Origin: Escherichia coli
GTDB taxonomy: Bacteria; Pseudomonadota; Gammaproteobacteria; Enterobacterales; Enterobacteriaceae
NCBI RefSeq assembly: GCF_009931435.1
Contig: NZ_CP043414.1
Reading direction: 5' to 3' (one strand)
Length of the DNA stretch: 64,000 bases
Part shown: one piece after another, positions 2,617 through 64,000 of the stretch
Layout of the letters: each line of letters starts with the position of its first letter
How positions within the stretch are numbered: the first letter of the stretch is position 1
The notes under the pieces: model-generated
What the model was told of the DNA's origin: nothing
What the model saw: only the letters and a program-made list of their open reading frames with translations
Databases searched by the model: none
Made by a program: the position numbers and the translations under genes

Positions 2617-3188
2617 CACAATCTCCAGCAATACATCCAAATAAAACTAAGATTGCATAAACAGCAACGCATTAAATGCCATTCCGGTTACTGTTCATCG
2701 CATATAAAAATTCAAAAATTTTGCATAGCATTGACAACCACATATCTGAGTATGTAGTTCAGAGGGTAATAAAATAGCAAGTTACTACTGAAAACTTATT
2801 TTAAGTTAACACTATTAACTTTATCATTACATTCCACCCAGTCTCGAATACATGCGCATTATATGTATCCAGGAACTCAAATCAACTCAAAATATAAACA
2901 AAAGCAGGAGGAATACATTTAATATACAGCCGGTAAAAGTGGTAACTCTTATTAGGTATCAAAATATAAGAATCGTCTTATTAATAAATATATAACTCTA
3001 TAGGACTGAATCCATTCAGCTAATGCAAAATAAAATCGTTAATTAATAAAATATAAAATCATGAAGTGATACAAGAGGAATTGCAGGATATGACATGACA
3101 ATCATATATAATATATGCATAATTTTTTACAGCGAGTCAATGATTTCCGCGCCATATGCAGACATGGCGCGGTTTTATGCAAAAATAA

Positions 3189-38297: not shown

Positions 38298-38545
38298 AGA
38301 TGCAATAATTAATTGCACTGCCCCGCCAGCTATAATCGCGGGGCTTCGTTTTTCAGGGATAACAAAACCCGAAACTTCTTCCATCTGCCAGCAACAATGC
38401 CTCTTCCTCTATAGGGTTCTCCGGATCTACAGCATCCTGAAGTAGCGCGATGTACTCACTGGCTATCTGCATCAGAAAGTTAAAAACAATGTTTTTAACC
38501 TATAAAAATGGCGCTGTATTTGCGCCATTTTTATCATTCAATGCA

Positions 38546-44369: not shown

Positions 44370-44477
44370 TCCTTGCGGCCGGGCGTGGAGAGCGCTTTCT
44401 CGCCTCCGGGGGAAATACCATAAATTAAGAGAAAAATCTGCAGTAGCCGTTTTAGAAAATCACCTAAATCGTTTAAA

Positions 44478-44501
44478 AGAGCGCCCAACCCATAGTGGGC
44501 G
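44478..44501. terminator. hairpin between convergent paoD and the MFS gene
   Basis: AGCGCCCA-ACCCATAG-TGGGCGCT inverted repeat. Confidence 0.35.
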
Positions 44502-44547
44502 CTCATCGCCTTGTGTAACTTATTCAGCAACGCGCGCCCTCGCCGGA

Positions 44548-45741
44548 CTAAAGCGCACCGGCCTTCTGGCGTGCGGTAACAAAGGTCAGTACGCCAGCGC
44601 AAAGGAGCAGCACGCTACTCATAGCAAACGTGCTCTGCCAGCCAAGGCGGTCAAACACAATGCCTCCTGCCGTTGATCCAAGGGCGATGGCGAGCTGAAT
44701 CACCGCGACCATGAGCCCGCCTCCGGCTTCGGCGTTGTCAGGCAACGTACGCGCAATCCATGTCCACCATCCGGTTGGCGCGGCGGTGGCCAGCATGCCC
44801 CAGAGTCCTAACAGCAGCGAGACCGTCCAGACGTGATGCCCGATAAGCATCAGACCGATAGCAATGACGGCCATAAGTCCGGGTATGGCCATCAGCGTGG
44901 GGTAGAATTTTCTGTTGAGAAATGCCGAAACAACCAGCGTGCCAATAAAACCGGCCACGCCGATAATCAGCAAAATCAACGACAAGCCTGAGGAATTAAC
45001 CCGTGTCACCGACTCCAGAAACGGGCGCACATAGGTGAATAGCGCAAACTGCCCCATGAAAAACAGGCCACAAGCTATCATGCCGACCACAACCATGCGG
45101 CGGCTAAATAAGCGGAATACCGTGCCAAATGACGTGTGGCTTTTATTCGCATCCATACTGGGCAGGCTGATGCACTGCCAGATAAAGGCGACAACCGCCA
45201 TGGGCACCAGGCACAAGAAAGCGCCTCGCCATCCGACCGTAGCCCCCAGATAGCTTCCCAGCGGCGCGGCCACGACCGTCGCCAGCGCATTACCGGCATT
45301 GAAAATCGCCAGCGCACGCGTGACCTGTTGCTGCGGCACCAGACGAATCGCCGTTGCCGCAGACATCGACCAGAATCCGCCAATAGCCACACCAATCATC
45401 GCACGACCGACCATATACATCAGATAACTGGAAGCCAGCGCAATAATAAGCCCCGAGACGGCCATCAGAACCGTCATCCCCAGCAGCAGGAACTTACGAT
45501 TCATCTTTCCAGCTAGCGTTGAAAGCGTCAGGCTGGTCAGAACCGCCAGCGCGCCGGAGATAGCAATCCCCTGCCCTGCCAGCCCCTCCGTCACGCCTAA
45601 ATCGCGGGTAATCGGCGTGAGCAGGCTGACGGGCATAAATTCAGAAGCAATCAGCACAAACACGCACAGGGTCATGGCAAAAATACCGCCCCAGTATGCG
45701 TGCTGATGATGAGGTGATGGTGTTTGGCTTAGTGTCGACAT
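44548..45741 (-). CDS. MFS transporter (12-TM, drug/sugar efflux-like)
   Basis: 397-aa highly hydrophobic ORF with MFS-like loop motifs. Confidence 0.85.
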   Translation of the reverse strand: MSTLSQTPSPHHQHAYWGGIFAMTLCVFVLIASEFMPVSLLTPITRDLGVTEGLAGQGIAISGALAVLTSLTLSTLAGKMNRKFLLLGMTVLMAVSGLIIALASSYLMYMVGRAMIGVAIGGFWSMSAATAIRLVPQQQVTRALAIFNAGNALATVVAAPLGSYLGATVGWRGAFLCLVPMAVVAFIWQCISLPSMDANKSHTSFGTVFRLFSRRMVVVGMIACGLFFMGQFALFTYVRPFLESVTRVNSSGLSLILLIIGVAGFIGTLVVSAFLNRKFYPTLMAIPGLMAVIAIGLMLIGHHVWTVSLLLGLWGMLATAAPTGWWTWIARTLPDNAEAGGGLMVAVIQLAIALGSTAGGIVFDRLGWQSTFAMSSVLLLCAGVLTFVTARQKAGAL

Positions 45742-45816
45742 AGTGAAATTTCACAAAGATCAGGATAAAAGCCACCGGCCATAGACCGGTGGCTTTGCAT
45801 CAATTCAGGAGAGGTT

Positions 45817-46953
45817 TTATTTCAGTTTGGTCTGGAAAAATTGTTCGAACTTCGCGAAAGGTATTTTTCCGGCCACGTTATCGTACAGGTCCACGTGATT
45901 TGCCCCTGGTACCACCACCAGCTCTTTGTCTTTACTGCCAACCGCCTTGTAAGCATCTTCAGCAAAATAGCGTGAATGCGCTTTCTCACCGGTCACAATC
46001 AGCGTCGGAATGGTGATTTCACTGGCGTAGCTCAACAGCGGCATATTCATAAATGACAGCGGCATCGTTGCCGTCCACGCCCCGGTAGAGTTAACGGAAC
46101 GTTCGTGGAAGCCGCGCGGCATGCGATAGTAGTCAAAGAACTCTTTCAGTACCGGATGAGGATTTGCCGGCAGCGTTTCTGGCAGAATACGCTCGCCCGC
46201 ACTGACCTTGCCGTTGCTGTCGACATTAATATCATGACCACCGTGAGCGAACGTTCCGCTCTGCGCATCCTTCCAGCGCTGTTCATTCAGATATTGCAGA
46301 ACAGCACGACGGTCGGCGGTAGAATAACGGTCTTTGCCATCCCCCACACCATGGCCCATCGCCCGGCTCATGTCATACATCACGCTGGTAGCTACCGCTT
46401 TAACGCGGGTATCCATCGCCGCGTCGTTCAGCGCCATGCCGCCCCAGCCACAAATACCGAGCAGCCCGATACGGTTGCGATCTACCTCTTTTTGCAGCCC
46501 TAAGAAATCCACCGCCGCGCTGAAATCTTCAGTGTTGATATCCGGTGAAGCGACGTTTCGCGGATAGCCGCCGCTTTCCCCGGTGTAAGAAGGATCGAAC
46601 GCCAGGGTAACAAACCCTCGTTCCGCCAGCGTCTGCGCATACAGGCCGCTGGATTGCTCTTTCACCGCGCCAAATGGCCCACTGACCGCAATCGCCGCCA
46701 GCTTGCGATCGCCACGGTCTTTAGGCAGGTAAAGATCGCCCACTAAGGTGATGCCATATCGGTTCGGGAACGAGACTTTACGGTGATCGACTTTCTGGCT
46801 CTCGGCGAACGTTTTATCCCATTTATCTGTCATGGACACAGGGGCATTAGGATTGGTTGAATCAGCATAACTCATTGTCGTGACTCCACTTAATGATGCG
46901 AAAAGCAGCATGGTCGGCATCGCGATTTTTAGCGTTCGGGTGAAGGCTTTCAT
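45817..46953 (-). CDS. secreted alpha/beta-fold hydrolase
   Basis: Track ORF 45817..46974; probable start at MKAFTRTLKIAMPTMLLFASLSGVTTMSYA (signal peptide); LGICGWGGMA motif; paralog of 26196..27116. Confidence 0.8.
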   Translation of the reverse strand: MKAFTRTLKIAMPTMLLFASLSGVTTMSYADSTNPNAPVSMTDKWDKTFAESQKVDHRKVSFPNRYGITLVGDLYLPKDRGDRKLAAIAVSGPFGAVKEQSSGLYAQTLAERGFVTLAFDPSYTGESGGYPRNVASPDINTEDFSAAVDFLGLQKEVDRNRIGLLGICGWGGMALNDAAMDTRVKAVATSVMYDMSRAMGHGVGDGKDRYSTADRRAVLQYLNEQRWKDAQSGTFAHGGHDINVDSNGKVSAGERILPETLPANPHPVLKEFFDYYRMPRGFHERSVNSTGAWTATMPLSFMNMPLLSYASEITIPTLIVTGEKAHSRYFAEDAYKAVGSKDKELVVVPGANHVDLYDNVAGKIPFAKFEQFFQTKLK

Positions 46954-47139
46954 AAAAATCCCCATAAAAAACAACAGAGAGATACAGGTTTCCGACGGAC
47001 AACACTGCGGTGCTTTACTTTGATGGGGTCATTATAGTGAGCAGAATTAGTGCTGATTAGGGGGCGATTAATGCTAAGATTAATACCATATTGTTATAAA
47101 TTAATGCGGAGATTGCCGGCATGAAGGGGGGATGTTTCA

Positions 47140-48024
47140 ATGGCGAAAAGGGAGAACTACAACGAGCTGTACCTGTTTATGCAGGTGGTGCGGGAAGGCA
47201 GCTTTACCGCAGCGGCTCAGCGGCTGGGTCTTGCTCAGTCAGGAGTCAGCCGTTCTGTTCGCGAGCTTGAAGAAAGGCTCGGCGTCCAGCTGCTGGTGCG
47301 CACCACGCGTAAACTGTCGCTGACGCAAGCAGGCGAGCAGCTCTACCAGAAGACGGCATCTGGATTTGAAATGTTAGATCTTGGGCTTGCCACACTGGCG
47401 CACTATCGAGAGACGCCCTCCGGCACGGTGCGTATCAATGCCAGCCAGCACGCGATTGATAAATGCCTGCTGCCAAAGCTGGCGGTATTTAAACAGCGAT
47501 ATCCTGATATCCGGCTTGAACTGATAAATGAGAGCCGGTTCGTCGATATCATCGAGGAAAGATTCGATGCTGGTGTCCGCCTGGGGCCTGAAGTCGGCCA
47601 GGGTATGGTCGCGGTACGCATCACGCCCGATATGGAGATGGCAATTGTGGGGACTCCGGAACATTTTCGTCGCTATGGTTTTCCGCAAACCCCGGCGGAT
47701 TTAAAGGCGCATCCCTGTATCGCCTATCAGTTTGCCGACGGCAGCGTATACCAGTGGGAACTCAATCAGGATGATAAAAAAATCACTCATCGCCCTGAAG
47801 GGCAATGGGCCCTATCCGACAGCTATATGGAAGCAGAAGCCGCACGGCTGGGCCTCGGATTGGCCTATGTTCCTGTTGAACTGGTTGCGGATGATTTAGA
47901 ACACGGTAAGCTTATCAGAGTGTTGCAGCGTTACAGCCTGCGAATGGAGGGATTGTTTCTCTATTACCCTCATCGCAACGTCTCCCCCGCTCTGCGGATG
48001 GTCATTGATACATTGAAAATCTGA
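47140..48024 (+). CDS. LysR-family transcriptional regulator
   Basis: 294-aa ORF with LysR HTH (GSFTAAAQRLGLAQSGVSRSVRELEERL). Confidence 0.85.
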   Translation: MAKRENYNELYLFMQVVREGSFTAAAQRLGLAQSGVSRSVRELEERLGVQLLVRTTRKLSLTQAGEQLYQKTASGFEMLDLGLATLAHYRETPSGTVRINASQHAIDKCLLPKLAVFKQRYPDIRLELINESRFVDIIEERFDAGVRLGPEVGQGMVAVRITPDMEMAIVGTPEHFRRYGFPQTPADLKAHPCIAYQFADGSVYQWELNQDDKKITHRPEGQWALSDSYMEAEAARLGLGLAYVPVELVADDLEHGKLIRVLQRYSLRMEGLFLYYPHRNVSPALRMVIDTLKI

Positions 48025-48262
48025 ACGTTAACAACGACCGACTCTTCACTGTGCAATATTGTGTCAGGTAGTCACTCTGCGTTCAATTCCAGGGGCCGCT
48101 TTGAGCGAGAAAGAGCGGACTTATCTGTACAAGGGGACTATCCAGCAATGGAGATCACCCATAAGAAAAAAGTACCTGGCTCCCTCGACAACCTTCATCC
48201 GGGAATTTAGCCTCAATCAACATTTTTATATCTGTCAGGTTACTTCATTATGAAAACCGATC

Positions 48263-48369
48263 AATATCGTTGTTTTTGTTGCAATAGTAGAATACGCCTA
48301 TTTATTCCTCCATTTCTATTAATAACGGCCATAAACCGTTCACTTCACTGATATTTAAAATATGCATCC
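48263..48369 (+). repeat. dispersed repeat, copy B (decayed ykgR-like segment)
   Basis: About 94% identical to 28940..29047; the upstream part differs by a roughly 30-nt deletion plus a 1-nt insertion, which destroys the ykgR reading frame. Confidence 0.7.
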
Positions 48370-48734
48370 TTTTCCTGCTTTTCAAGTTGTTCAGCGGCGT
48401 AAGAAAACGTATTAAATATGAATTCGACGATTTAACCATTTCTGTCTGATTGGTAATCATCTGTGATTAATGCTGGTCTATTGATTACGCCAGCATTAAC
48501 CGCTTAGGGATGTATTCTTCCTGATCATATACATCCCTCGAAAAAGAGAGAAAATAAAACTGTGTCCAATATTACTCTACCACTCCAGACCGAAGTATCG
48601 GTAGAATTAGCAGAACGACTGGTACAATAGATTGGGATAGCGTCATTTGTCAGGTATTCCATTGCCTGACAAATGACAATTTTGAGTCAATAGACGTGCT
48701 TCTTGATCATGTCTTACAAATTATACCATGAACC

Positions 48735-49007
48735 TTATGAAGCATCATTTTTACTGACTGGTGTTAACTTTGCTATCATATAAACTCTGTTCTTAAAAAA
48801 CGCGCCCAGAATTTTATATGATTTCCCTTGTTTTTCTGCCTGTAAAGAAATTTCTTTTTCAGTGCTGTTAATGGTTGAACCGACGGCAGTAATCTTTTTG
48901 GCGACGCTACTGAATGATAATAAAGACAGTGTAACCACAACAATTAAAGAACAGATAGTATTCACGTTAATTCTCCTGACAATTGAGAGGGTGAGTTTTA
49001 TATACAT
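48735..49007 (-). CDS. small secreted DUF1471-like protein
   Basis: 90-aa ORF with hydrophobic N-terminus; loose resemblance to YhcN/BhsA-type proteins. Confidence 0.45.
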   Translation of the reverse strand: MYIKLTLSIVRRINVNTICSLIVVVTLSLLSFSSVAKKITAVGSTINSTEKEISLQAEKQGKSYKILGAFFKNRVYMIAKLTPVSKNDAS

Positions 49008-49176
49008 AGGTATTAAACATGAGTCATATTTACTCCAAGAGAAAACACTCCTTCTGTAATTAAACCTTCATCTCCTTCGGGGTGAGCAATACATAATGCA
49101 TCTTGCTATGCAAAACAGGTGGATATCAATTTTCCTCCCGACCTATTTAATAAAACGTGAATATAAAAGTTATTCT

Positions 49177-49914
49177 TCAGTTTGCAGATGCAGTAGGTCT
49201 GATGGTAATTTCGGTTGTATCAACGCTTTCGGGAGATTCAATAATATGCCTTACAGCACGGGCAATATCCGCGGGTTGAAGTGCAACAGAACGGTAGGCG
49301 TTCATTGACTTCATGGTTTCCACATGGGTAATGGTTGAAGCCAGTTCACTTTCTACAACCCCAGGATTTACGCAGGTCACACGGATTTTCGAGCTTTCCT
49401 GCCGTAAGCCATCAGAAATAGCCCGTACTGCAAATTTTGATGCGCAATAGACTGCGCCTGTGGGCACAACAGAAAGGGCACCAATAGAACCAAGATTGAT
49501 TATCTGACCGGAACCCTGTGCTTCCATCACCGGAAGTACAGCGCCAATTCCCCAAAGTACGCCTTTGATATTCACGTCAATAGTGAGCTCCCATTCATTT
49601 TGTTTTCCTGCTGCAAGCGGTGAAAGCGGCATAACGCCCGCATTATTGATAAGAACATCAACTCGCCCCCAGCTATCCAGCGCTGCTTGCACGAAATCTG
49701 CCATGGACTGTCGGTCTGTGACATCCAACTCCCGCGCTTTAGCAATTCCTCCTGCGCGGCAGATTTCTTTTGCAATGGCTTCGATACGCTCAAGTCTGCG
49801 TGCTCCCAGTAAAACCTTTGCACCTGCCGTTCCCAGCTCTCTGGCAATACCTTCCCCAATACCACTTGATGCGCCGGTGATTAATATGACCTTATCCATT
49901 ACGTTCTCCTTCAA
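49177..49914 (-). CDS. short-chain dehydrogenase/reductase (SDR)
   Basis: 245-aa ORF with TGASSGIG Rossmann motif and NNAG. Confidence 0.88.
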   Translation of the reverse strand: MKENVMDKVILITGASSGIGEGIARELGTAGAKVLLGARRLERIEAIAKEICRAGGIAKARELDVTDRQSMADFVQAALDSWGRVDVLINNAGVMPLSPLAAGKQNEWELTIDVNIKGVLWGIGAVLPVMEAQGSGQIINLGSIGALSVVPTGAVYCASKFAVRAISDGLRQESSKIRVTCVNPGVVESELASTITHVETMKSMNAYRSVALQPADIARAVRHIIESPESVDTTEITIRPTASAN

Positions 49915-49997
49915 ATGTGTTCGGAGAGAGAATAGAACTTTATGATTGGTTCCAGTATCCTGCTTTCAATGTACTCAATGGTTAGCGGCATTAAACA

Positions 49998-50897
49998 ATG
50001 AAAATCGATCTTAATCTTTTACCCATTTTTATCGCGGTAGCAGAAGAGAGTAATTTCAGTAAAGCCGCCGCACGACTGGGCGTTACCCGTTCAGCGGTCA
50101 GTCAGGGAATAAGACGTCTTGAAGATGCATTCGGGACAATGCTTGTAATGCGGACCACGCGCTCAGTTAATTTGACGGAAGCGGGAGAACGGCTGCATAA
50201 ATCGTTGTCATTACCTTTATCCGGTATTGAGGCAGCGTTCGAAGAGATGGTCTCTGACCATGTACCACGTGGACATCTCAGAATCGCGGTGACGTCGATA
50301 GCAGAAGAATTTCTTTCAGGTCCGCTAATCGCTTCGTTTGCAGCTGCCAATCCAGCCGTTACGCTTGATATTGTTGTCACGGATGAGGAATTCGATATCG
50401 TTGCCGCAGGTTACGATGCTGGCGTAAGGCTCGGAGAGGTCATTGAAAAAGACATGATTGCTGTTCCCCTTACCGGTAAGCAGCGTGAGATGGTCGTTGC
50501 CTCTCCCTCCTATCTCGCAGCCAACAGCACACCTGTTCATCCGCGCGAACTTGTGAATCATAAGTGTATCGGCTGGCGTCAGTCCCCGGAGGTTGCGCCT
50601 TATCGCTGGCCATTTGAAGAAAACGGTAGAGCTTTCGACCTTGCGATTGAACCGCAGATTACGACGAATGATCTGCGTCTGATGTTGAGGCTGGCTCTTG
50701 CCGGCGGAGGAATAACAATTGCCACTCAGGAAACGTTCAGGCCATATATTGAAAGCGGTAAGCTTGTATCGCTGCTTGATGACTTTCTTCCACAATTTCC
50801 GGGCTTCTATCTGTATTTCCCACAGCGTCGCAATATTGCACCAAAGCTCCGCGCCCTGATTGACCACGTCAAGGAATGGCGGCAGCAATTGGCTTAA
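49998..50897 (+). CDS. LysR-family transcriptional regulator
   Basis: 299-aa ORF with LysR HTH; divergent from the SDR gene. Confidence 0.88.
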   Translation: MKIDLNLLPIFIAVAEESNFSKAAARLGVTRSAVSQGIRRLEDAFGTMLVMRTTRSVNLTEAGERLHKSLSLPLSGIEAAFEEMVSDHVPRGHLRIAVTSIAEEFLSGPLIASFAAANPAVTLDIVVTDEEFDIVAAGYDAGVRLGEVIEKDMIAVPLTGKQREMVVASPSYLAANSTPVHPRELVNHKCIGWRQSPEVAPYRWPFEENGRAFDLAIEPQITTNDLRLMLRLALAGGGITIATQETFRPYIESGKLVSLLDDFLPQFPGFYLYFPQRRNIAPKLRALIDHVKEWRQQLA

Positions 50898-51024
50898 ATG
50901 TCTGCACCTGCACTGCCTGATGTCAGAACAGTATTTTGAGAAATTGCCAGGGTTACAATGGCACAAATACGGCACAGGAGGAAAACGTGGTGTAATTGAA
51001 TGTGAGGTAACTTATTGATTTAAA

Positions 51025-51100
51025 TGGTGCCGATAATAGGAGTCGAACCTACGACCTTCGCATTACGAATGCGCTGCTCTACCAACTGAGCTATATCGGC
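51025..51100 (-). tRNA. thrW: tRNA-Thr (anticodon CGU)
   Basis: Reverse complement reads GCCGATATAGCTCAGTTGGTAGAGCAGCGCATTCGTAATGCGAAGGTCGTAGGTTCGACTCCTATTATCGGCACCA, a 76-nt cloverleaf with encoded CCA. Confidence 0.95.
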
Positions 51101-55422: not shown

Positions 55423-56667
55423 TTAACACAATCGTTTTTCGATCCAGCTCGTGATTTCCTGAAGACCTTTGTCAAAATTCCGATACACCGGATTAAATGG
55501 AATCTCTAACAATTTACCATCAGCAGATGATGAGGTGATTAAGCGTGAGTCCTCTTCCGGGCTGAACGGATCGTTCTTCCAGTAGCCTGATAACATTGGC
55601 GTCGGGCAGCGACGGCCCAGCAATCCTTGCACTTTTAATGAATAACGATTCAGTTCCACACGCAACGCTTCATCGGAAGCATCATGCATCCCCAAACGAC
55701 TCGCCAGAACGTCAAGATACATTTCCGGCACCTGTTGCTGGCACTTAAAATCACTCAACAGGGTATGAACTACCGGACCAAGACAAGCAACCGCTTTCAG
55801 ACGCGGCGATTCAAGATATGCCAGACGCACAGCAACGTTAGCGCCAAAACGGAAACCAAAGGCCGCGACACGGGTGTGATCCACCCACGGGACGTTAGGC
55901 AGCGCCTTTAAGACGTGCTGATGCAACAGGCTGGAGTCCTGGGTGAGCTTCCATTTTGAAGAAAAGCCCACCGACGGCATATCAATAGTCAGCATCGCAA
56001 TGCCGCGCGGGGCAAAATAACGTTCATACAGACTGTAATAATCCGTCTGCATCGCATCCAGACCACCACACATTAATACCGTCGGGAACGGGCCATCGCC
56101 TTTCGGCATATGCAAAAAGCCGGTGATGGGCGCACCGCCTGGTACGGTAAACTCCATCTGCCGCATCGTGCCCGGCAGACGTTGGGCGGCCTCTTCATAG
56201 GCACGGTTTGACAAAGCCTGCGCTTGCTCGGCCAGGTCATCCCCTTTCAGATGAGGATAGGCGGCAATGTTGTACAACGTGGCCGCATGCAGCCAGTGAC
56301 GACCACTGAGTTGTGGATCTTCTTCCGCACAAGCTTTTTGTTGCCACACCATCGCCTGGGTGGCCCATTCATAAATCCAGTTGCCGCCGCGGTAGCCAAT
56401 CACCGTATCGTATAAATCATCGTCGGTACGTTCAGCATCGCTCATCACAATACGCGCCTGAACGTCGAGGATTTCACGTGGGTCAATGCCGCGCCAGATC
56501 CACATCAGACGGTTTATCATGCGATACCAGTGGGGGATGGTTTTACCATCAAGGGCCGACTGCACAGGCGGTTGTGCGCCGTGATTAAAGCGGCGGACTA
56601 GCGTCGAGGTTTCAGGATGTTTAAAGCGGGGTTTGAACAGGGTTTCGCTCAGGTTTGCCTGTGTCAT
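55423..56667 (-). CDS. frsA: esterase FrsA
   Basis: 414-aa ORF. Confidence 0.93.
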
Positions 56668-56758
56668 GGATGCAGCCTCCAGAATACTTACTGGAAACTA
56701 TTGTAACCTGCCTGAAGTTAAAAAGAACAACGCCCGGCAGTGCCAGGCGTTGAAAAGA

Positions 56759-57217
56759 TTAGCGACCGGAGATTGGCGGGACGAATACGACGCCCATATC
56801 CCACGGCTGTTCAATCCAGGTATCTTGTGGGATATCAACAACATAATCATCAACCAGCGGACGACCTGCCGGTTTAGCGAAGATGGTGACAAAGTGCGCT
56901 TTTGGATACATTTCACGAATCGCAACCGCAGTACCGCCGGTATCCACCAGATCATCAATAACGATGAAGCCTTCGCCATCGCCTTCTGCGCGTTTCAGCA
57001 CTTTAAGCTCGCGCTGGTTGTCGTGATCGTAGCTGGAAATACAAACGGTATCGACATGACGAATACCCAGTTCACGCGCCAGTAACGCACCCGGTACCAG
57101 ACCGCCACGGCTTACGGCAATAATGCCTTTCCATTGTTCAGAAGGCATCAGTCGGCTTGCGAGTTTACGTGCATGGATCTGCAACATGTCCCAGGTGACG
57201 ATGTATTTTTCGCTCAT
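56759..57217 (-). CDS. gpt: xanthine-guanine phosphoribosyltransferase
   Basis: 152-aa ORF. Confidence 0.96.
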
Positions 57218-57477
57218 GTGAAGTGTCCCAGCCTGTTTATCTACGGCTTAAAAAGTGTTCGAGGGGAAAATAGGTTGCGCGAGATTATAGAGATCTGACG
57301 CACTAAAAACCAGTATTTCACATGAGTCCGCGTCTTTTTACGCACAGCCTCTCCCTGACGCGGGATAAAGTGGTATTCTCAAACATATCTCGCAAGCCTG
57401 TCTTGTGTTGACAACATTTTCTGCTAACCCTGTGACCTGCAATACTGTTTTGCGGGTGATCGACAAGGAGACTTAAC

Positions 57478-58935
57478 GTGTCTGAACTGTCTCAATTATC
57501 TCCACAGCCGCTGTGGGATATTTTTGCCAAAATCTGTTCTATTCCTCACCCGTCCTATCATGAAGAGCAACTCGCTGAATACATTGTTGGTTGGGCAAAA
57601 GAGAAAGGTTTCCATGTCGAACGCGATCAGGTGGGTAATATCCTGATTCGTAAACCTGCTACCGCAGGTATGGAAAATCGTAAACCGGTCGTCTTACAGG
57701 CCCACCTCGATATGGTGCCGCAGAAAAATAACGACACCGTGCATGACTTCACTAAAGATCCTATCCAGCCTTATATTGATGGCGAATGGGTTAAAGCGCG
57801 CGGTACCACGCTGGGCGCGGATAACGGCATTGGTATGGCCTCTGCACTGGCGGTTCTGGCTGACGAAAACGTGGTTCACGGCCCGCTGGAAGTGCTGCTA
57901 ACCATGACCGAAGAAGCCGGTATGGACGGGGCGTTCGGCTTACAGAGCAACTGGTTGCAGGCTGATATTCTGATTAACACCGACTCCGAAGAAGAAGGTG
58001 AAATCTACATGGGTTGTGCTGGGGGTATCGACTTCACCTCCAACCTGCATTTAGATCGTGAAGCCGTTCCGGCTGGTTTTGAAACCTTCAAATTAACCTT
58101 AAAAGGTCTGAAAGGCGGTCACTCCGGCGGTGAAATCCACGTTGGCCTGGGTAACGCGAACAAACTGCTGGTGCGCTTCCTGGCGGGACATGCAGAAGAA
58201 CTGGACCTGCGTCTTATTGATTTCAACGGCGGCACACTGCGTAACGCCATCCCGCGTGAAGCCTTTGCGACCATCGCTGTCGCAGCTGATAAAGTCGACG
58301 CACTGAAAACGCTGGTGAATACCTATCAGGACATCCTGAAAAACGAGCTGGCAGAGAAAGAGAAAAATCTGGCCTTGTTGCTGGACTCTGTTGCGAACGA
58401 TAAAGCTGCCCTGATTGCGAAATCTCGCGATACCTTTATTCGTCTGCTGAACGCCACCCCGAACGGTGTGATCCGCAACTCCGACGTGGCAAAAGGTGTG
58501 GTTGAAACCTCCCTGAACGTCGGTGTCGTGACCATGACCGACAACAACGTAGAAATTCACTGTCTGATCCGTTCTCTGATCGACAGCGGTAAAGACTACG
58601 TGGTGAGCATGCTGGATTCGCTGGGTAAACTGGCTGGCGCGAAAACCGAAGCGAAAGGCGCATATCCTGGCTGGCAGCCGGACGCTAATTCTCCGGTGAT
58701 GCATCTGGTACGTGAAACCTATCAGCGCCTGTTCAACAAGACGCCGAACATCCAGATTATTCACGCGGGCCTGGAATGTGGTCTGTTCAAAAAACCGTAT
58801 CCGGAAATGGACATGGTTTCTATCGGGCCAACCATCACCGGTCCGCACTCTCCGGATGAGCAGGTTCACATCGAAAGCGTAGGCCATTACTGGACACTGC
58901 TGACTGAACTGCTGAAAGAAATTCCGGCGAAGTAA
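57478..58935 (+). CDS. pepD: cytosol nonspecific dipeptidase PepD
   Basis: 485-aa M20-family peptidase ORF. Confidence 0.96.
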   Translation: MSELSQLSPQPLWDIFAKICSIPHPSYHEEQLAEYIVGWAKEKGFHVERDQVGNILIRKPATAGMENRKPVVLQAHLDMVPQKNNDTVHDFTKDPIQPYIDGEWVKARGTTLGADNGIGMASALAVLADENVVHGPLEVLLTMTEEAGMDGAFGLQSNWLQADILINTDSEEEGEIYMGCAGGIDFTSNLHLDREAVPAGFETFKLTLKGLKGGHSGGEIHVGLGNANKLLVRFLAGHAEELDLRLIDFNGGTLRNAIPREAFATIAVAADKVDALKTLVNTYQDILKNELAEKEKNLALLLDSVANDKAALIAKSRDTFIRLLNATPNGVIRNSDVAKGVVETSLNVGVVTMTDNNVEIHCLIRSLIDSGKDYVVSMLDSLGKLAGAKTEAKGAYPGWQPDANSPVMHLVRETYQRLFNKTPNIQIIHAGLECGLFKKPYPEMDMVSIGPTITGPHSPDEQVHIESVGHYWTLLTELLKEIPAK

Positions 58936-58991
58936 TTTTTTGATTTGCTGCCGGATGGCGTTTGATCGTCTTCCGGCAGTTTCATCCTTTC

Positions 58992-59606
58992 TTATCCTTC
59001 GATAAAAGCCATCCCTGTAAACGTCCGTCGCGGGTTGCCACGTTCAATCTGGTGATGGAACATTCGCCGCTGCGATTTCAGCGCCGCGCTATTTTCCTGT
59101 TGCTGTTGCTCCAGCTTCCAGGCAATCAGCAATCGCGCCAGCCGTTTGTTGGCATGTTGGCTGCGCTCTGACTGAACCTTCACGCTAATCCCGGATGCCA
59201 GATGCGTGGCGCGTACCGCCGAGTCGGTTTTATTGACATGTTGACCGCCCGGCCCCGACGAACGCAGCGTCTCATAACGGATTGCATCCGATTGTTCCTG
59301 CTCATCAGCGGTAAAACGCCCAATGCCCAGAAACCAGTTTTTGCGCCCATGATGAGGCCGATACGGGCTTGGGCAAATCCACTGAATAGTGCCGCACCAA
59401 CTTTCGCTTAATGCCCATGCGTTATCGCCATCCAGAGAAATCAGCGCCGAACGCAGCGTGTCAGAGTAGCGGCCCGTTTCTGTTTCCAGCACCGTTACCG
59501 CGACGTCTTGTCGGGTAGCTTCTTTAATCAACCTGTCCAGCGCCTTTTTCACTGCGAGACAACATTCTTCCGGTCCCTGAGCTGAGGAGAGTTGCAGCAA
59601 GATCAT
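58992..59606 (-). CDS. prfH: peptide-chain release factor homolog PrfH (intact)
   Basis: 204 aa from [15 protein letters not shown]; contains GGQ motif ([12 protein letters not shown]); ATGA overlap with the rtcB2 stop. Confidence 0.9.
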
Positions 59607-60754
59607 CCTTTTTTCCCTCCACTGTTTTTGAGCGTCAGCACCGGACGCAGTCGCGCGGCAGGAATAATTAAACCGGCCTGCACCAGACATTGCACCACAC
59701 TTTCAGCCGATTTATAGGCTTGTGGCGCTTCTTCAAAGATGAGTTGTTTATCGCGACAAATTACCCGACCGCCAAGTTCAGTACGTGAGAGTTGCGTCGC
59801 CGTGTATTTCGCTGCCAGACGCCCTTTACACTCGGTGCGCCCCCATTTACGCCCTGCCCCATGCGCCAGTGAGTGAAGCGTTTTTTCGTTCGCAACAGGT
59901 TTAACCAGCCAGGAGTAATCACCGCGTGAACCGGGAATAATCACCAGACCGTTGTCATCCGGCGTAGCCCCTTTACGGTGTAACCATCCTTGTTGATCGC
60001 CGATTCGACATGCGCTAACAAAGTTATGCGCCACATCCAGAACCGAATTTCCGTTGGCCTTAACTTGTTGCATTATGCGCAAAGCGATCAGCTGGCGATT
60101 AATACGCGCAAACGCCAGCGCATCATCATGTTCCGCAATATAACTTAGCGCGTCGTCACTGCCTTCCGGCAAACCATGATGCGAAAACGAGGCAATATGC
60201 CGCTGTAAAATAGACTGCCCTAAACCACGCGAGCCGCTATGGACCAGCAGTTGCAGATGCTGCGCATCCAGACCTGACAGTGCAAACAGTTCCGCATCGA
60301 TGATTTGATCAATCTGTTGCAGTTCTGCAAAGTGGTTACCGCCACCGATAGAGCCAAGCGCGCAGCGCCACGGATGCTGTGCAAACGCTGACGGCAGGTT
60401 TTCCTCCAGCCAGCTTTCTTCAGCAACGTCATCCAGCGCAGATAATCGCTTTTCAAACTTATCGGCGTTGTATTTACGCGCGAGAATATCTGTTTGCCAT
60501 AGCGCCATACCGCAGCCGATATCATTGCCGACCAGTGCCGGGTAAAAACGGCCTACGGAGAAGAACGCTGCGCCAATCGGATAGCCGCGTCCTGGGTGTA
60601 AATCTGGCATCCCTACGACGCGTTGCATGTCGGGTAAATTTGCCGTGGTGTGTAATTGTTGGATCGCTGAACTCTCGATCCACAGGTCATCAGATGCGAT
60701 GGTAAATACCGCATCGGATAAGGGACGAATATATTTGCCCATGTACCATTCCAT
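59603..60754 (-). CDS. rtcB: RtcB-family RNA ligase (RtcB2, intact)
   Basis: 383-aa ORF; position where K-12 has the ykfJ pseudogene. Confidence 0.88.
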
Positions 60755-61059
60755 TTATACTCGTCATACTTCAAGTTGCATGTACTGCGACTGCGTTCGT
60801 TCACCCCAGTCACTTACTTTAGTAAGCTCCTGGGGATTCACTCGCTTGTCGCCTTCCTGCAACTCGAATTATTTAGAGTATATAAATATAAAAATCAGGA
60901 AATGGCAGACGAATCCAGGGCAAGAAAAAAAGAATTAATCCTGGAAAGGTCTGCAAAGAGTCATTGATAAAGGATTTTTCATGATTTACCTCCTTGCAGT
61001 TTGTGGAATAAGAAAACGCGCACATATTAGGCGGGCGTTATTTTCATTGCAAGCTGGAT

Positions 61060-61512
61060 TTAGTGTTGCGGTTTATATCGCATATGAAAATTAGTAAACC
61101 ACGCTCCCCGGCATTCAACGCGCTGCTGCTTAACTGTCTGAAAACCATAACGTTCAAAAAAGGGTTTTGCGGTTATGCTGGCATCTACCGTAAGTTCGGA
61201 TTCAGACTTAATCAAAGGTTTTAACAAAGCGCTGGCAACCCCGCAGCGGTTGTATTTCGGATCAACAAATAACATATCGATATAATGCTCAATGCAGGTA
61301 ATAAAGCCGACCAGTTGTGTATTAATCACCGCAACCCGCACTTGTGATTTCGCGAGTTTCTCTTTCCATCGATGTTCATCAATCTGCGCCCAGGCGGCAA
61401 TTTGTTGTGGTGAATAATGCTGACTGGCGGTCATCGTAACCGCTCTAATAAAAATAGCGCATAGCTGCTGAAAATCGCCAGGCTGATAGTCTCTTATTTG
61501 TATATTATTCAT
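61060..61512 (-). CDS. yafP: GNAT-family N-acetyltransferase YafP
   Basis: 150-aa ORF immediately after dinB with a 4-nt gap/overlap. Confidence 0.85.
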
Positions 61513-62564
61513 AATCCCAGCACCAGTTGTCTTTCCATTTGCGGATCAAGCAACGTCACATGCAGCCCCACCAGTCGCACACCGCGTCCGCCCCGGCGTT
61601 CATCCCAGGTTTTACGCGCAGTGGCGATCAAGTCAGCTTTATTCAGCCGCGGCCAGACGTGTTCCTGGGTGGTTTGCTGAAAATCGTCGAACTTTAATTT
61701 CACCCCCTGGCGGGCAATCAGTAAATCAGGTTTTACCTTTGCCAGACGACGCTCCAGTTCAGGGTAAAGCCGCTCGATGATCGCTTCACATTCAGACCAG
61801 TGATGAATATCTTCCGCCATGGTGCGTTCTACACCGACGGATTTTCGCAACCTTTCGCTGTTAACGTCGCGCTCGTCAATCCCCTGACTACGCTCCCACA
61901 AAATGCGACCAAATTTGCCAAAGCGTTTAAGCAACGTCACCAGATCACACTTTTGTACATCGCCGCAGGTCCGCAGCCCCATCGCTTCCAGTTTTGCCGC
62001 CGAGACTTTGCCGACACCGGGAATTTTTGCCAGCGGTAAGGTTTGCAGAAATGCCGGGACGTCCGCCGGCGTAATCACAAACTGTCCGTTGGGTTTATTC
62101 ATATCAGAGGCGATTTTGGCGAGAAACTTGACCGGCGCAACGCCCGCAGACGCCGTCAGTTGCAGCTCGTTGAAGATCGTCTGGCGGATTTCCTGAGCGA
62201 TAAGGGTCGCAGAGCCGTGGCAATGTACGCTGTCGGTGACGTCGAGATAGGCTTCATCCAGTGACAGCGGCTCAATACGCGATGTGTAGCGAGAGAAGAT
62301 TTCGCGGATATGATTTGACGCTTCTTTGTAGGCGTCAAAGCGCCCTGGAAGCAAGGTGAGATGCGGACACAGTTTGAGCGCCATGCCGGTTGGCATTGCG
62401 CTACGCACGCCAAATTTACGCGCGGGATAATTGGCGGTGCTGATCACCCCCCGGCGTTCGCGGCTGCCGCCAATAGCAATAGGGATATCGCGCAGGGCGG
62501 GATTGTCGCGCATCTCCACCGCGGCGAAAAAGCAGTCCATATCCACATGAATGATTTTACGCAT
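61509..62564 (-). CDS. dinB: DNA polymerase IV
   Basis: 351-aa ORF beginning [26 protein letters not shown]. Confidence 0.97.
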
Positions 62565-62578
62565 TGCTCACCTCTCAA

Positions 62579-62598
62579 CACTGGTAAAGTATACAGTG
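62579..62598. promoter_or_regulatory. LexA (SOS) box of dinB
   Basis: CACTGGTAAAGTATACAGTG contains CTG-N10-CAG, 15-34 bp upstream of the dinB start. Confidence 0.7.
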
Positions 62599-62634
62599 AT
62601 TTCAGAGTTTGAGAAATGCGTAAAGATTCAGCAT

Positions 62635-63400
62635 TTAACGCGTTCGCTGCGAAAGCACCTGCTGCTTATCCAGCTTTTTCACCAGCGGCTGCACCACCTT
62701 ATCCCCATGCTGACCAAAATATTGATACAACGTATCAGACGCGCTTTTGGTGAGCACCATAATCTCAATGCGCCGGTTACCCGCACTTTGCGGATTTTTC
62801 GTGTCCAGCAGCATCTGGTCCGCCATTGCGCTCACCTGCATCACTTTATCTTCCGGCATCCCGGCCTCTTCCAGCACCCGACGAGCCGAGAGCGCACGAT
62901 CGCCCGAAAGGTTCCAGTTGTTGTAGATATTGCTTTTATAGGCCATCGCATCGGTATGCCCGGTAATAATAATTTTGTTATCGAGCGAGTCGAATACCGG
63001 CGCGAGCTCCACCAGCAGAGTTTTAAAGAACGGCATAATCTTCGCGCTGCCGCGTTCAAACATATTGCGGTTCTGGTCATCTTTAATCAGCACGCGTAAT
63101 CCCTGCGGGACAATCTCCATCTCCAGATTGGCTTCCATATGCGCATCGCGGGCGATGGTGTTGATACTGGTCGCCAGCTCGCCAAGCTCAGTGGCGGACT
63201 TCTTCTTCAGTAGCGCCGTTTTCTCGTTGACGTCGCGGGCTTTTTTCTCCGTCTCTTCCGGCACCGCCACGGTGGCAGGTTTCAGCGGATGCGTCGGGCT
63301 GATTTTATTTAACGGCGATAGCCCGCCGCCATTGAAAATCGACTGCCCGTGCAGCGCGGCGATAATGCTTTCACGCTCGGATTTACTGACGCTGTTGACA
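62635..63400 (-). pseudogene. lafU: lafU fragment (MotB-like, OmpA-type C-terminal domain; N-terminus deleted)
   Basis: Track ORF 62635..63552; the MotB/OmpA-like C-terminal domain is recognisable (IIITGHTDAMAYKS ... NRRIEIMVLTK), while the N-terminal extension is antisense to the lfhA fragment and lacks the TM anchor. Confidence 0.65.
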
Positions 63401-64000
63401 ATCAACTTTATTGTCGTCACCAAAGGGGCTGAGCGTATTTCCGAGGTTTCTGCCCGCTTTACCCTGGACGCGATGCCCGGCAAGCAAATGGCGATTGACG
63501 CCGATCTTAACGCCGGGTTGATCAACCAGGCGCAGGCGCAGACCCGCCGCAAAGATGTTGCCAGCGAGGCCGATTTCTACGGCGCGATGGACGGGGCATC
63601 GAAGTTTGTGCGCGGGGATGCCATCGCCGGGATGATGATTCTGGCGATCAACCTGATTGGCGGCGTTTGTATCGGGATCTTCAAATACAACCTGAGCGCC
63701 GATGCCGCCTTCCAGCAATATGTGCTGATGACCATCGGCGACGGCCTGGTGGCGCAGATCCCGTCCCTGCTGCTTTCCACCGCGGCGGCGATTATCGTCA
63801 CCCGCGTCAGCGACAACGGCGATATTGCCCATGACGTGCGCCACCAGTTGCTGGCAAGCCCGTCGGTGCTCTACACCGCCACCGGGATTATGTTCGTGCT
63901 GGCGGTGGTGCCGGGAATGCCGCACTTCCCGTTCCTGATGTTCAGCGCCCTGCTTGGTTTTACCGGCTGGCGAATGAGCAAACGCCCGCAGGCGGCGGAG
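63401..64000 (+). pseudogene. lfhA: lfhA fragment (FlhA-like export gate, internal portion; runs off window end)
   Basis: Plus-strand frame translates to INFIVVTKGAERISEVSARFTLDAMPGKQMAIDADLNAGLI..., matching FlhA from about residue 130 onward; no N-terminus. Confidence 0.65.

What the first reader, a model, noticed from the sequence alone, without database searches (positions are those of the whole stretch)
58992..60754. Intact rtcB2–prfH operon (pseudogenes ykfJ/prfH in K-12)
Both ORFs are full length and translationally coupled by an ATGA overlap, and PrfH keeps its GGQ motif. As I recall the literature, this pair acts on ribosomes with damaged 16S rRNA (colicin E3-type cleavage), with the release-factor homolog recognising the damaged decoding site and RtcB2 religating. 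It sits downstream of dinB–yafP in a stress-response neighbourhood.
Basis: partly seen in the sequence, partly recalled or inferred. Interest (0 to 1): 0.55.

Follow-up and report, generated by a model that had tools for sequence, protein, structure and literature searches.

The report
Intact rtcB2–prfH ribosome-repair operon
This E. coli window carries an undamaged copy of the published two-gene system (RNA ligase RtcB2 plus release-factor-like PrfH) that repairs ribosomes cut by colicin E3-type toxins. It is ordinary, being present in about half of complete E. coli genomes, but it has a conserved upstream leader mini-gene that the E. coli papers I read do not mention.

Summary
On the minus strand, rtcB2 (59603-60742, 379 aa) and prfH (58992-59606, 204 aa) are uninterrupted and overlap by ATGA. 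PrfH is 203/204 identical to the E. coli ATCC 25922 protein in cryo-EM entry 7SA4. RtcB2 is 364/379 identical to the ATCC 25922 enzyme. All catalytic and rRNA-contact residues are present.

The system is therefore already known. About half of complete E. coli genomes (2709/5426) keep the locus; the rest, including K-12, carry deletions.

Corrections to the finding:
- The genes are on the minus strand.
- The real rtcB2 start is most likely 60742, not 60754.
- dinB-yafP here lacks yafN-yafO.
- The operon has its own conserved promoter.

One addition goes beyond the finding. A 15-codon leader ORF (60935-60982) with covarying hairpins precedes rtcB2 in 18 sampled taxa, from Escherichia to Pseudomonas. 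It looks like the counterpart of the P. aeruginosa PA5471.1 leader peptide, which senses ribosome stalling. In this window a 127-bp ERIC repeat is inserted between that leader and the rtcB2 start.

Interest is low to moderate.

The parts
58992..59606 (-). prfH: peptide chain release factor H, 204 aa, short (E. coli-type) subfamily without a C-terminal tail
   Evidence: ORF and translation. NCBIfam TIGR03072 scores 329 bits against a cut-off of 167. Pfam RF-1 domain at residues 106-194. 203/204 identical to PDB 7SA4 chain 8 and to the ATCC 25922 protein. GGQ at 120-122, and contact residues R52, S53, R83, H85, H86, R88, K89, N90, R181, H184 and R189 are all present.
59603..60742 (-). rtcB2: release-factor-H-coupled RtcB-family RNA ligase, 379 aa
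   Evidence: NCBIfam NF007153 scores 636 bits (cut-off 407) and TIGR03073 scores 617 bits. Pfam RtcB. 364/379 identical to ATCC 25922 WP_000521562.1. D74, C77, N136, H137, H168, H239 and H294 align with the P. horikoshii RtcB positions D95, C98, N202, H203, H234, H329 and H404. The protein matches the consensus at all 138 columns that are at least 98% conserved among 116 homologues.
59603..59606 (-). ATGA overlap of the rtcB2 stop and the prfH start, with a GGAGGG Shine-Dalgarno at 59615-59620
   Evidence: Read directly from the sequence. The same 4-nt overlap occurs in every Enterobacterales locus where the junction was examined. Some other taxa have TAATG or TGATGA instead.
60752..60754 (-).
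   Evidence: details are under the observation check.
60746..60752 (-). GGAATGG, the conserved ribosome-binding region of rtcB2, 3 nt upstream of the ATG at 60742
   Evidence: GGA(A/T)TGGTA(C/T)ATGGGCAA is nearly invariant from Escherichia to Pragia. It is complementary to the CCATTTC element at 60898-60905, and one position covaries (U:A in some taxa, A:U in others).
60756..60882 (-). 127-bp ERIC-type imperfect palindromic repeat inserted in the rtcB2 5' leader
   Evidence: It is absent at this site in ATCC 25922 and E. whittamii, and present in K-12 and R32_14_1F. It is a multi-copy element: the queries that include it match a median of 6 places per E. coli genome. There is a sub-threshold Rfam V_AS5 hit. 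It folds as a long hairpin. Its match to the ERIC consensus and primers is from my own knowledge.
60898..60905 (-). CCATTTCC, a candidate anti-ribosome-binding-site element immediately 3' of hairpin P2
   Evidence: In the predicted fold of the free leader this element, together with the P2 3' arm, pairs with the rtcB2 ribosome-binding site and start codon.
60905..60954 (-). Hairpin P2 (GCAGAC..CCAGG / CCTGG..GTCTGC). Its 5' arm lies in leader-ORF codons 10-14, and the ORF stop codon opens the loop.
   Evidence: RNAalifold predicts it as the consensus structure, with 5 pairs showing compensatory changes. Of the cells in its two sub-helices, 92-97% are paired; the whole-structure covariation score (P2 and P3 counted together) beats 500 of 500 shuffles. 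Examples of covariation: GCAGGC:GCCTGC in Limnobaculum, GCGGGC:GCCCGC in Providencia, GCAGAT:ATCTGC in Entomohabitans.
60935..60982 (-). Leader ORF of 15 codons, MKNPLSMTLCRPFQD*, with a strong Shine-Dalgarno (AAGGAGG, 60989-60995)
   Evidence: Found upstream of rtcB2 in all 18 sampled taxa, at 13-15 codons, and in all 15 metagenome loci that are true hits. Codons 2-8 vary freely but contain no stop codons. Length differences are multiples of 3. The C-terminal part is conserved as x-C-(R/G)-x-x-Q-x-stop. No held paper contains the peptide.
60953..60997 (-). Helix P1: GCAAGGAG (60990-60997, which overlaps the leader ORF's Shine-Dalgarno) pairs with CTCTTTGC (60953-60960, leader codons 8-10). 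It shares a GC with P2, so the two compete.
   Evidence: Predicted in the minimum-energy fold of every species tested. Both arms are almost invariant, so covariation cannot test it.
61024..61052 (-). Candidate sigma-70 promoter: TTGCAA (61047-61052), 17 nt, TAATAT (61024-61029), starting 8 nt after the yafP stop
   Evidence: CTTGCAAT and TAnTAT are invariant across Escherichia, Klebsiella, Citrobacter and Phytobacter/UBA3516, and a similar TTGCAA...TATCAT is present in Providencia sneebia. The simple consensus scan missed it, at 8/12 matches. No transcription start has been mapped.
58948..58979 (.). Inverted repeat CTGCCGGA...TCCGGCAG between the convergent pepD and prfH genes; terminator-like
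   Evidence: Read from the sequence. The T-run lies on the pepD side only. This has not been tested.

Best explanation
This is a functional copy of the known RtcB2-PrfH ribosome rescue-and-repair module.

The mechanism below was shown experimentally for the ATCC 25922 orthologues. It is inferred here from 96-99.5% identity.
- A colicin E3 or CdiA-CT type nuclease cuts 16S rRNA between A1493 and G1494 and stalls the 70S ribosome.
[quoted passage not shown] Its rRNA-recognition domain binds the new 3'-phosphate end at A1493, and its GGQ loop hydrolyses the peptidyl-tRNA.
- The ribosome can then be split.
- RtcB2, a GTP- and metal-dependent 3'-phosphate/5'-OH ligase acting through a His294-GMP intermediate, reseals the 16S rRNA in the freed 30S subunit.

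The two genes are made from one mRNA and overlap by ATGA.

An added inference concerns expression. It is probably set by a conserved leader, consisting of its own promoter, a 15-codon ORF with a strong Shine-Dalgarno, and three adjoining helices (P1, P2, P3). In the resting fold these helices hide the rtcB2 ribosome-binding site. A ribosome stalled early on the leader ORF would free P1's 3' arm, complete P2 and loosen P3. [quoted passage not shown] In this window a 127-bp ERIC hairpin sits inside that leader.
For: Identity of the genes:
- Both ORFs are intact and overlap by ATGA.
- Curated family scores are far above their cut-offs.
- PrfH is 203/204 identical to the cryo-EM protein.
- RtcB2 is 96% identical to the characterised enzyme.
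- All catalytic and contact residues are kept.
- Selection is purifying against ATCC 25922: dN/dS is 0.012 for prfH and 0.11 for rtcB2, at dS of about 0.18, like the flanking core genes.

Function:
- PMC9304027, PMC9223846 and PMC13166195.

Leader:
- The ORF and helices are conserved with rtcB2 in 18 taxa, including taxa where the neighbouring genes differ.
- Covariation supports P2 and, less strongly, P3.
- Predicted folds switch when a ribosome is placed on the leader start codon.
- Predicted ribosome-binding-site accessibility rises modestly in most of the species tested.
- The Pseudomonas precedent is described.
- K-12 ykfJ, which has the same leader plus the ERIC repeat, is reported to be inducible by 4-azaleucine.
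Against: Nothing was measured for this strain.

On the proteins:
- RtcB2 carries 15 substitutions. These include S325G (Ser in 112 of 116 homologues), V362A (the other 116 sequences have V, I or L) and C127 (not seen elsewhere). Their effect is unknown.
- Half of E. coli genomes have lost the operon, so it is dispensable.

On the leader model:
- The predicted ribosome-binding site stays mostly paired in every modelled state (unpaired probability 0.15-0.47).
- No canonical terminator was found in the short enterobacterial leader, whereas the Pseudomonas mechanism is described as transcription attenuation.
- I could not retrieve the PAO1 sequence or the primary paper. Homology to PA5471.1 therefore rests on position, the 13-codon length in Pseudomonas sp. 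YH-1, and the shared architecture.
- The effect of the ERIC insertion is unknown.
Confidence: 0.9

Rival explanations
1. The module's main role is to relieve ribosomes stalled by antibiotics or other translation stress, rather than to repair toxin-cut rRNA. This is the view in the Pseudomonas literature, where PA5470 (PrfH) is reported to release azithromycin-stalled ribosomes and the operon is induced by ribosome-targeting drugs.
For: The leader resembles a stalling sensor and is conserved with the operon. Reviews describe drug-inducible armZ-PA5470 and a role for PA5470 against azithromycin. K-12 ykfJ is reported to be inducible by 4-azaleucine.
Against: EcPrfH, which is 203/204 identical to this protein, showed no release activity and no binding on intact 70S ribosomes. 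Activity on both damaged and intact ribosomes needs the basic C-terminal tail of the 225-250 aa PrfH-CT subfamily, and this 204-aa protein lacks it. RtcB2 is a ligase with no obvious substrate in drug-stalled ribosomes. Induction by stalling is also compatible with the repair role.
Confidence: 0.07
2. The locus is an intact-looking but silent or decaying remnant on its way to loss, as has happened in K-12, O157 and many other lineages.
For: 2716 of 5425 matching complete genomes lack most of the locus, with several distinct deletion classes. A repeat element has landed in the 5' leader. In Intestinirhabdus the gene calls show prfH split, and the leader loop carries an insertion of about 170 nt.
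Against: There are no disabling mutations. dN/dS is 0.012 for prfH and 0.11 for rtcB2. All 138 highly conserved RtcB2 columns are kept. At least 40 complete genomes, including LF82, keep an intact operon together with the full ERIC. K-12, with the same ERIC, is still reported to be inducible.
Confidence: 0.02
3. RtcB2 here acts mainly as a regulator, sequestering a repressor in the way P. aeruginosa ArmZ sequesters MexZ, rather than as a ligase.
For: ArmZ belongs to the same curated family, PRK09588 / NF007153.
Against: All ligase catalytic residues are conserved. The 96%-identical E. coli enzyme has demonstrated ligase activity, and its H294N mutant loses most of the protective activity. No MexZ/MexXY partner was identified here, although I did not search for one.
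Confidence: 0.01

Closest known systems
E. coli ATCC 25922 RtcB2-PrfH (Tian et al. 2022 PNAS; Maviza et al. 2022 IJMS and 2026 RNA Biol; PDB 7SA4)
   Same: Same locus between yafP and pepD, same gene order and the same ATGA overlap. PrfH is 203/204 identical and RtcB2 is 364/379 identical. dinB-yafP lacks yafNO in both strains. The promoter and leader ORF are the same apart from K2T.
   Different: This window has a 127-bp ERIC repeat between the leader and the rtcB2 start, which ATCC 25922 lacks. RtcB2 has 15 substitutions. The nucleotide sequences are about 5% divergent, as are the flanking genes.
P. aeruginosa armZ (PA5471) - PA5470 (prfH) with leader peptide PA5471.1
   Same: Same two protein families. 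ArmZ is described as a member of PRK09588, which is this protein's best NCBIfam match. The Pseudomonas sp. YH-1 pair scores in the same models. A short leader ORF with a strong Shine-Dalgarno lies upstream, 13 codons in Pseudomonas and 15 here, with a shared ...LCR... core and the GCAAAGG / CCTTTGC helix.
   Different: In P. aeruginosa the ligase homologue also binds the MexZ repressor. Its leader is about 250 bp from the gene and is described as a transcription attenuator with terminators. Here the leader is 64-70 nt from the start codon where ERIC is absent, no canonical terminator was found, and the structure points to hiding of the ribosome-binding site. I did not have the PAO1 sequence.
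E. coli RtcB1-RtcA (rtcBA) RNA repair system
   Same: Same Pfam family (PF01139) and the same catalytic residues and chemistry.
   Different: About 28% identical, according to Tian et al. It is paired with the RtcA cyclase. It repairs cleaved tRNAs but not the colicin-cut 30S subunit, so the substrates are mutually exclusive.
PrfH-CT subfamily (Capnocytophaga gingivalis PrfH; PDB 9MOR, 9MQ4)
   Same: Same fold and same GGQ. The alignment covers residues 3-201, E = 2.5e-40.
   Different: CgPrfH has a basic C-terminal tail (231 aa) that lets it also rescue intact non-stop ribosomes. This protein ends at residue 204 with no tail.
Class I release factors RF1/RF2 and ArfB
   Same: GGQ peptidyl-hydrolase domain (Pfam RF-1).
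   Different: PrfH lacks domain 1. Its domain 2/4 equivalent reads cleaved rRNA rather than a stop codon.

Membership tests
RtcB2 (release-factor-H-coupled RtcB; NCBIfam NF007153 / TIGR03073) | Whole-protein score above the curated family cut-off | tested here: met
   636 bits against 407 for NF007153, and 617 bits against 272 for TIGR03073.
RtcB2 (release-factor-H-coupled RtcB; NCBIfam NF007153 / TIGR03073) | RtcB metal-binding and guanylylation residues (Asp, Cys, Asn-His, His, His, His-GMP) | tested here: met
   D74, C77, N136, H137, H168, H239 and H294 are present. They align to P. horikoshii D95, C98, N202, H203, H234, H329 and H404, and they are invariant in 116 homologues.
RtcB2 (release-factor-H-coupled RtcB; NCBIfam NF007153 / TIGR03073) | Encoded immediately upstream of prfH, in the same orientation | tested here: met
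   4-nt overlap. The same arrangement is seen in nearly all related loci; the exceptions are L020, cut at a contig end, and Intestinirhabdus, where the prfH call is split.
RtcB2 (release-factor-H-coupled RtcB; NCBIfam NF007153 / TIGR03073) | Religates 16S rRNA cut at A1493/G1494 in 30S subunits, but not cleaved tRNA | not testable with these tools
   Shown for the 96%-identical ATCC 25922 enzyme.
PrfH (TIGR03072; IPR017509), short E. coli-type subfamily | Whole-protein score above the curated cut-off | tested here: met
   329 bits against 167.
PrfH (TIGR03072; IPR017509), short E. coli-type subfamily | GGQ motif in an RF-1 type domain, with no RF domain 1 | tested here: met
   GGQ at 120-122. 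Pfam RF-1 at 106-194. Residues 6-189 align to RF2 residues about 115-308 only, so the region N-terminal to that (RF domain 1) has no counterpart.
PrfH (TIGR03072; IPR017509), short E. coli-type subfamily | Residues that bind the cleaved A1493 3'-phosphate, h18/S12, C1914 and C1054 | tested here: met
   R83, H86, R88, R189, K89, N90, R52, S53, R181, H184 and H85 are all present. The only difference from the structure's sequence is K20R.
PrfH (TIGR03072; IPR017509), short E. coli-type subfamily | No basic C-terminal tail, which would place it in the PrfH-CT subfamily | tested here: met
   204 aa, ending at the same residue as EcPrfH.
Leader-peptide control of the armZ/rtcB2-prfH operon (PA5471.1 type) | Short ORF with its own Shine-Dalgarno on the operon's 5' leader, conserved together with the operon | tested here: met
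   13-15 codons in the 18 taxa sampled and in 15 metagenome loci. Indels are in multiples of 3.
Leader-peptide control of the armZ/rtcB2-prfH operon (PA5471.1 type) | Alternative RNA structures that depend on ribosome position in the leader ORF | tested here: inconclusive
   P2 is supported by covariation. Predicted folds switch between P1 plus an extended P3, and a full P2, when a ribosome is placed on the start codon. The computed change in ribosome-binding-site accessibility is small, and no terminator was found.
Leader-peptide control of the armZ/rtcB2-prfH operon (PA5471.1 type) | Sequence homology to P. aeruginosa PA5471.1 itself | not tested
   The PAO1 sequence and Morita 2009 were not obtainable. 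Only Pseudomonas sp. YH-1 was examined (13 codons).
Leader-peptide control of the armZ/rtcB2-prfH operon (PA5471.1 type) | Induction by ribosome stalling | not testable with these tools
   Reported for P. aeruginosa, and for K-12 ykfJ with 4-azaleucine, in secondary sources.
ERIC (enterobacterial repetitive intergenic consensus) element | Imperfect palindrome of about 127 bp, multi-copy, intergenic, with presence or absence varying between strains | tested here: met
   127 bp at 60756-60882 with inverted ends TATACTC...GAGTATA. It folds as a long hairpin. The queries that include it match a median of 6 places per genome. It is absent at this site in ATCC 25922. The match to the published ERIC consensus was recalled from memory and was not run.

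The most novel reading that the evidence does not exclude
The ribosome-repair operon may carry its own damage sensor. The conserved 15-codon leader ORF upstream of rtcB2 would be the enterobacterial counterpart of P. aeruginosa PA5471.1. On this reading, ribosomes that stall at or just after its start codon flip the P1/P2/P3 helices and switch on rtcB2-prfH. Colicin E3-cut ribosomes are reported to stall in exactly that position.

This would join two bodies of work that, in the papers I could read, do not cite each other: ribosome repair in E. coli, and ArmZ/MexXY antibiotic induction in Pseudomonas. It also predicts that intact-operon E. coli strains induce the system in response to translation inhibitors. 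The ERIC insertion, which recurs at this spot in several lineages, could tune that switch.
Probability: 0.45. Interest if true: 0.5.

Novelty: already known. Interest (0 to 1): 0.25.

Why it matters
As found, it matters little. It is one more intact allele of a system characterised in 2022, and it is common in E. coli.

It is useful for annotation. Strains with this allele should tolerate colicin E3 and CdiA-CT type 16S rRNA nucleases better than K-12-like strains.

The leader adds some value. If it senses stalled or damaged ribosomes, it would explain how cells make repair enzymes at the moment translation is being destroyed. It would also tie the E. coli repair system to the clinically important ArmZ-MexXY induction pathway of P. 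aeruginosa.

Tried and rejected
- PADLOC defence-system models gave no hit for either protein. The module is not catalogued there, so this says nothing either way.
- Rfam gave no family for the leader at E <= 1. There was only a sub-threshold hit on the ERIC repeat and some chance hits.
- The simple promoter and terminator scan found neither the conserved promoter (8/12 matches) nor any terminator between yafP and rtcB2.
- I tested whether the 94-95% identity to most E. coli genomes marks this locus as unusually divergent. It does not. The flanking genes frsA, pepD, yafP, dinB and lafU are just as divergent, at 91-97%. The whole region comes from a divergent, mosaic lineage.
- Constrained folding with a ribosome placed at each leader codon gave only small changes in ribosome-binding-site accessibility. 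It is suggestive, not decisive.
- A trp-type arrangement, in which a terminator forms after full translation of the leader, could not be found by eye or by folding.
- The metagenome pattern scan added little diversity. It returned 15 true hits, mostly Klebsiella- and Kosakonia-like plus Cronobacter- and Pragia-like ones, and 5 false positives.
- Finding the ATCC 25922 locus needed several blind look-ups because that assembly is rearranged relative to K-12.
- Morita 2009 could not be read.
- I considered that the leader 'ORF' might be only an RNA structure. This was not excluded. However, a fixed length, indels in multiples of 3, no stop codons in the variable codons, and a strong, correctly spaced Shine-Dalgarno all favour translation.
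Full report
**What is there**

The finding's coordinates hold two uninterrupted ORFs on the minus strand.
- prfH runs 59606 to 58992: 204 codons plus a TAA stop.
- The upstream ORF ends in TGA at 59605-59603. The prfH ATG and this stop form ATGA, and a GGAGGG Shine-Dalgarno lies 9 nt upstream.
- The longest reading of the upstream ORF starts at 60754 (MEWYMGKY). The start at 60742 (MGKY, 379 aa) is better supported, for four reasons. The NCBIfam profile aligns from residue 5. RefSeq uses that start. It reproduces the H294 numbering of Tian et al.. Citrobacter, Intestinirhabdus and Providencia have no in-frame ATG at the upstream position.

**Identity**

RtcB2:
- It scores 636 bits on NCBIfam NF007153 (cut-off 407) and 617 bits on TIGR03073, the release-factor-H-coupled RtcB model.
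- I located the ATCC 25922 locus. RtcB2 is 364/379 identical to that strain's enzyme.
- The RtcB metal and guanylylation residues D74, C77, N136, H137, H168, H239 and H294 are present.
- In an alignment with 116 homologues, the window protein matches the consensus at all 138 columns that are at least 98% conserved.
- Three of the 15 substitutions are unusual for the family: S325G, V362A and C127.

PrfH:
- It scores 329 bits on TIGR03072 (cut-off 167).
- It is 203/204 identical (K20R) to chain 8 of PDB 7SA4, the E. coli PrfH bound to a damaged ribosome.
- GGQ (120-122) and every rRNA-contact residue named by Tian et al. are kept.

Selection against ATCC 25922 is purifying. dN/dS is 0.012 for prfH and 0.11 for rtcB2, at dS of about 0.18, similar to the flanking genes.

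**What it does**

This comes from the literature, for the near-identical proteins.
- PrfH releases peptide only from 70S ribosomes cut between A1493 and G1494. It recognises the cleaved 3'-phosphate end.
- RtcB2 reseals the cut in 30S subunits but does not repair tRNAs.
- Together they reverse colicin E3-like toxicity (PMC9304027).
- Deleting the operon sensitises ATCC 25922 to colicin E3 (PMC9223846).
- RtcB2 alone can repair 30S and vacant 70S ribosomes, and PrfH speeds repair of translating ribosomes (PMC13166195).
- At 204 aa this PrfH belongs to the short subfamily. It lacks the C-terminal tail that lets Capnocytophaga PrfH also rescue intact ribosomes.

**How common it is**

- Of 5426 complete E. 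coli genomes, 2709 hold at least 80% of the locus. The others have deletions of several kinds.
- The K-12 deletion corresponds to about 1027 bp of this window, between two near-identical 9-mers. It was already noted in 2006.
- The window is only 94-97% identical to most E. coli at this locus. The neighbouring genes are equally divergent, so this is a property of the lineage, not of the operon.
- The closest complete genome over the whole locus, R32_14_1F from a goat, is mosaic. It is 99.8% identical in prfH but 95.6% in yafP.

**Neighbourhood**

- dinB and yafP overlap directly, and yafN-yafO are absent, as in ATCC 25922.
- The order dinB-(yafP)-rtcB2-prfH-pepD is kept in Salmonella, Kosakonia, Cronobacter, Phytobacter, Intestinirhabdus and Entomohabitans.
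- In Limnobaculum, Pragia, Leminorella, Providencia, Proteus and Pseudomonas the neighbours are unrelated.
- The link to dinB is therefore inherited gene order, not a functional requirement.

**The leader (beyond the finding)**

The gap between yafP and rtcB2 is more conserved than the coding sequence. It contains the following elements.
- A candidate promoter, TTGCAA-17-TAATAT, invariant across four genera.
- A strong Shine-Dalgarno followed by a 15-codon ORF, MKNPLSMTLCRPFQD* (60935-60982).
- Helix P1, which pairs that Shine-Dalgarno region with leader codons 8-10.
- Hairpin P2, whose 5' arm lies in codons 10-14.
- A CCATTTCC element complementary to the rtcB2 ribosome-binding region GGAATGG (helix P3).

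The same layout precedes rtcB2 in all 18 taxa examined.
- The ORF has 13-15 codons.
- Codons 2-8 are variable and free of stop codons.
- Length changes come in multiples of three.
- The motif x-C-(R/G)-x-x-Q-x-stop is conserved.

Structural support:
- RNAalifold predicts P2 with five compensatory pairs.
- On alignment A3, 90% of cells in P2 plus P3 are paired, against 22-56% when the partners are slid. The covariation score beats all 500 shuffles.
- Predicted folds show P1 plus an extended P3 covering the rtcB2 start in the free leader. With a ribosome placed on the leader start codon, P2 forms fully and P3 is weaker.
- The computed gain in ribosome-binding-site accessibility is small, and no terminator was detected.

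**Link to Pseudomonas**

- Reviews state that P. aeruginosa PA5471 (ArmZ) belongs to the PRK09588 cluster, that it is co-transcribed with PA5470 (a PrfH), and that it is controlled by a 13-residue leader peptide, PA5471.1. That peptide senses ribosome stalling. Early stops or deletion of the leader activate expression.
- The same review reports that K-12 ykfJ is induced by 4-azaleucine.
- Pseudomonas sp. YH-1 has a 13-codon leader ORF with the same core, upstream of proteins in the same two families.
- I could not obtain the PAO1 sequence or the primary paper, so homology to PA5471.1 is an inference.
- None of the four E. coli RtcB2-PrfH papers mentions ArmZ, PA5471, PA5470 or Pseudomonas.
- No held paper pairs 'rtcB2' with 'leader peptide', or contains the leader peptide sequence (the K-12/ATCC 25922 form was searched).

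**The ERIC insertion**

- In this window a 127-bp ERIC-type palindrome (60756-60882) separates the leader from the rtcB2 ribosome-binding site.
- ATCC 25922 lacks it; K-12 has it.
- Among complete genomes, 1282 combine an intact operon with a full or shortened ERIC. At least 40 of these, including LF82, have the full form.
- Shortened ERIC-like inserts sit at the same spot in Escherichia sp. E1V33 and Klebsiella spallanzanii.

**Verdict**

The system is already known and common. The conserved leader, and its likely kinship with PA5471.1, is the only part that may be new for E. coli, and it needs experiments.

Noticed in passing
window 60898-61052 (- strand); L013-L033: A conserved promoter, a 15-codon leader ORF and three helices lie upstream of rtcB2 in 18 taxa from Escherichia to Pseudomonas. 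It is probably the counterpart of the P. aeruginosa leader peptide PA5471.1. The E. coli RtcB2-PrfH papers I read do not describe it.
   Followed up: partly
window 60756-60882; L017 (Escherichia sp. E1V33), L020 (K. spallanzanii): ERIC-type repeats, full or shortened, have inserted at the same point in several lineages, between the leader's U-rich tract and the rtcB2 ribosome-binding site. This suggests a preferred insertion site, or a tolerated or tuning role.
   Followed up: partly
window 61509-61512: dinB and yafP overlap directly. The yafN-yafO toxin-antitoxin pair found between them in K-12 is absent here, as it is in ATCC 25922 and R32_14_1F.
   Followed up: partly
window 62635-64000: lafU is full length (305 aa), and further ORFs follow it to the end of the window. 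In the closest genome, R32_14_1F, this region is annotated as lafU, motA and a FliA-type sigma factor, which belong to the Flag-2 lateral flagellar cluster. K-12 keeps only a remnant of that cluster.
   Followed up: no
window 55423-63552: The whole region is 91-97% identical to K-12 and ATCC 25922. It is a mosaic relative to the nearest complete genome (99.8% identical in prfH, 95.6% in yafP), which indicates a divergent, recombined E. coli lineage.
   Followed up: partly
window 44400-51100: tRNA-Thr (CGU), i.e. thrW, lies at 51025-51100. Only about 6.6 kb separates it from the pao genes; the three ORFs I scanned there are an MFS transporter, a lactonase-like protein and a LysR regulator. The large CP4-6 prophage that K-12 carries at this site appears to be absent.
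   Followed up: no
window 38340-38540 (-): Full-length Rfam match to the IS009 RNA (196 bits against a gathering score of 117).
   Followed up: no
L023 (Intestinirhabdus alba) 2120-4312: The loop of hairpin P2 carries an insertion of about 170 nt, and prfH is called as two pieces (144 aa and 61 aa). This suggests the operon is decaying in that species.
   Followed up: no
window 59509-59517 and 60536-60544: The K-12-type 1-kb deletion has its end points at two near-identical 9-mers (TGTCGGGTA and TGCCGGGTA). This is consistent with loss by slippage or recombination between short direct repeats.
   Followed up: yes
L003-L013 (E. coli ATCC 25922, NZ_CP009072.1): In this assembly the his-yegT segment lies out of order and in opposite orientation relative to the rest of the chromosome, compared with K-12. 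This is either a large rearrangement or an assembly artefact.
   Followed up: no
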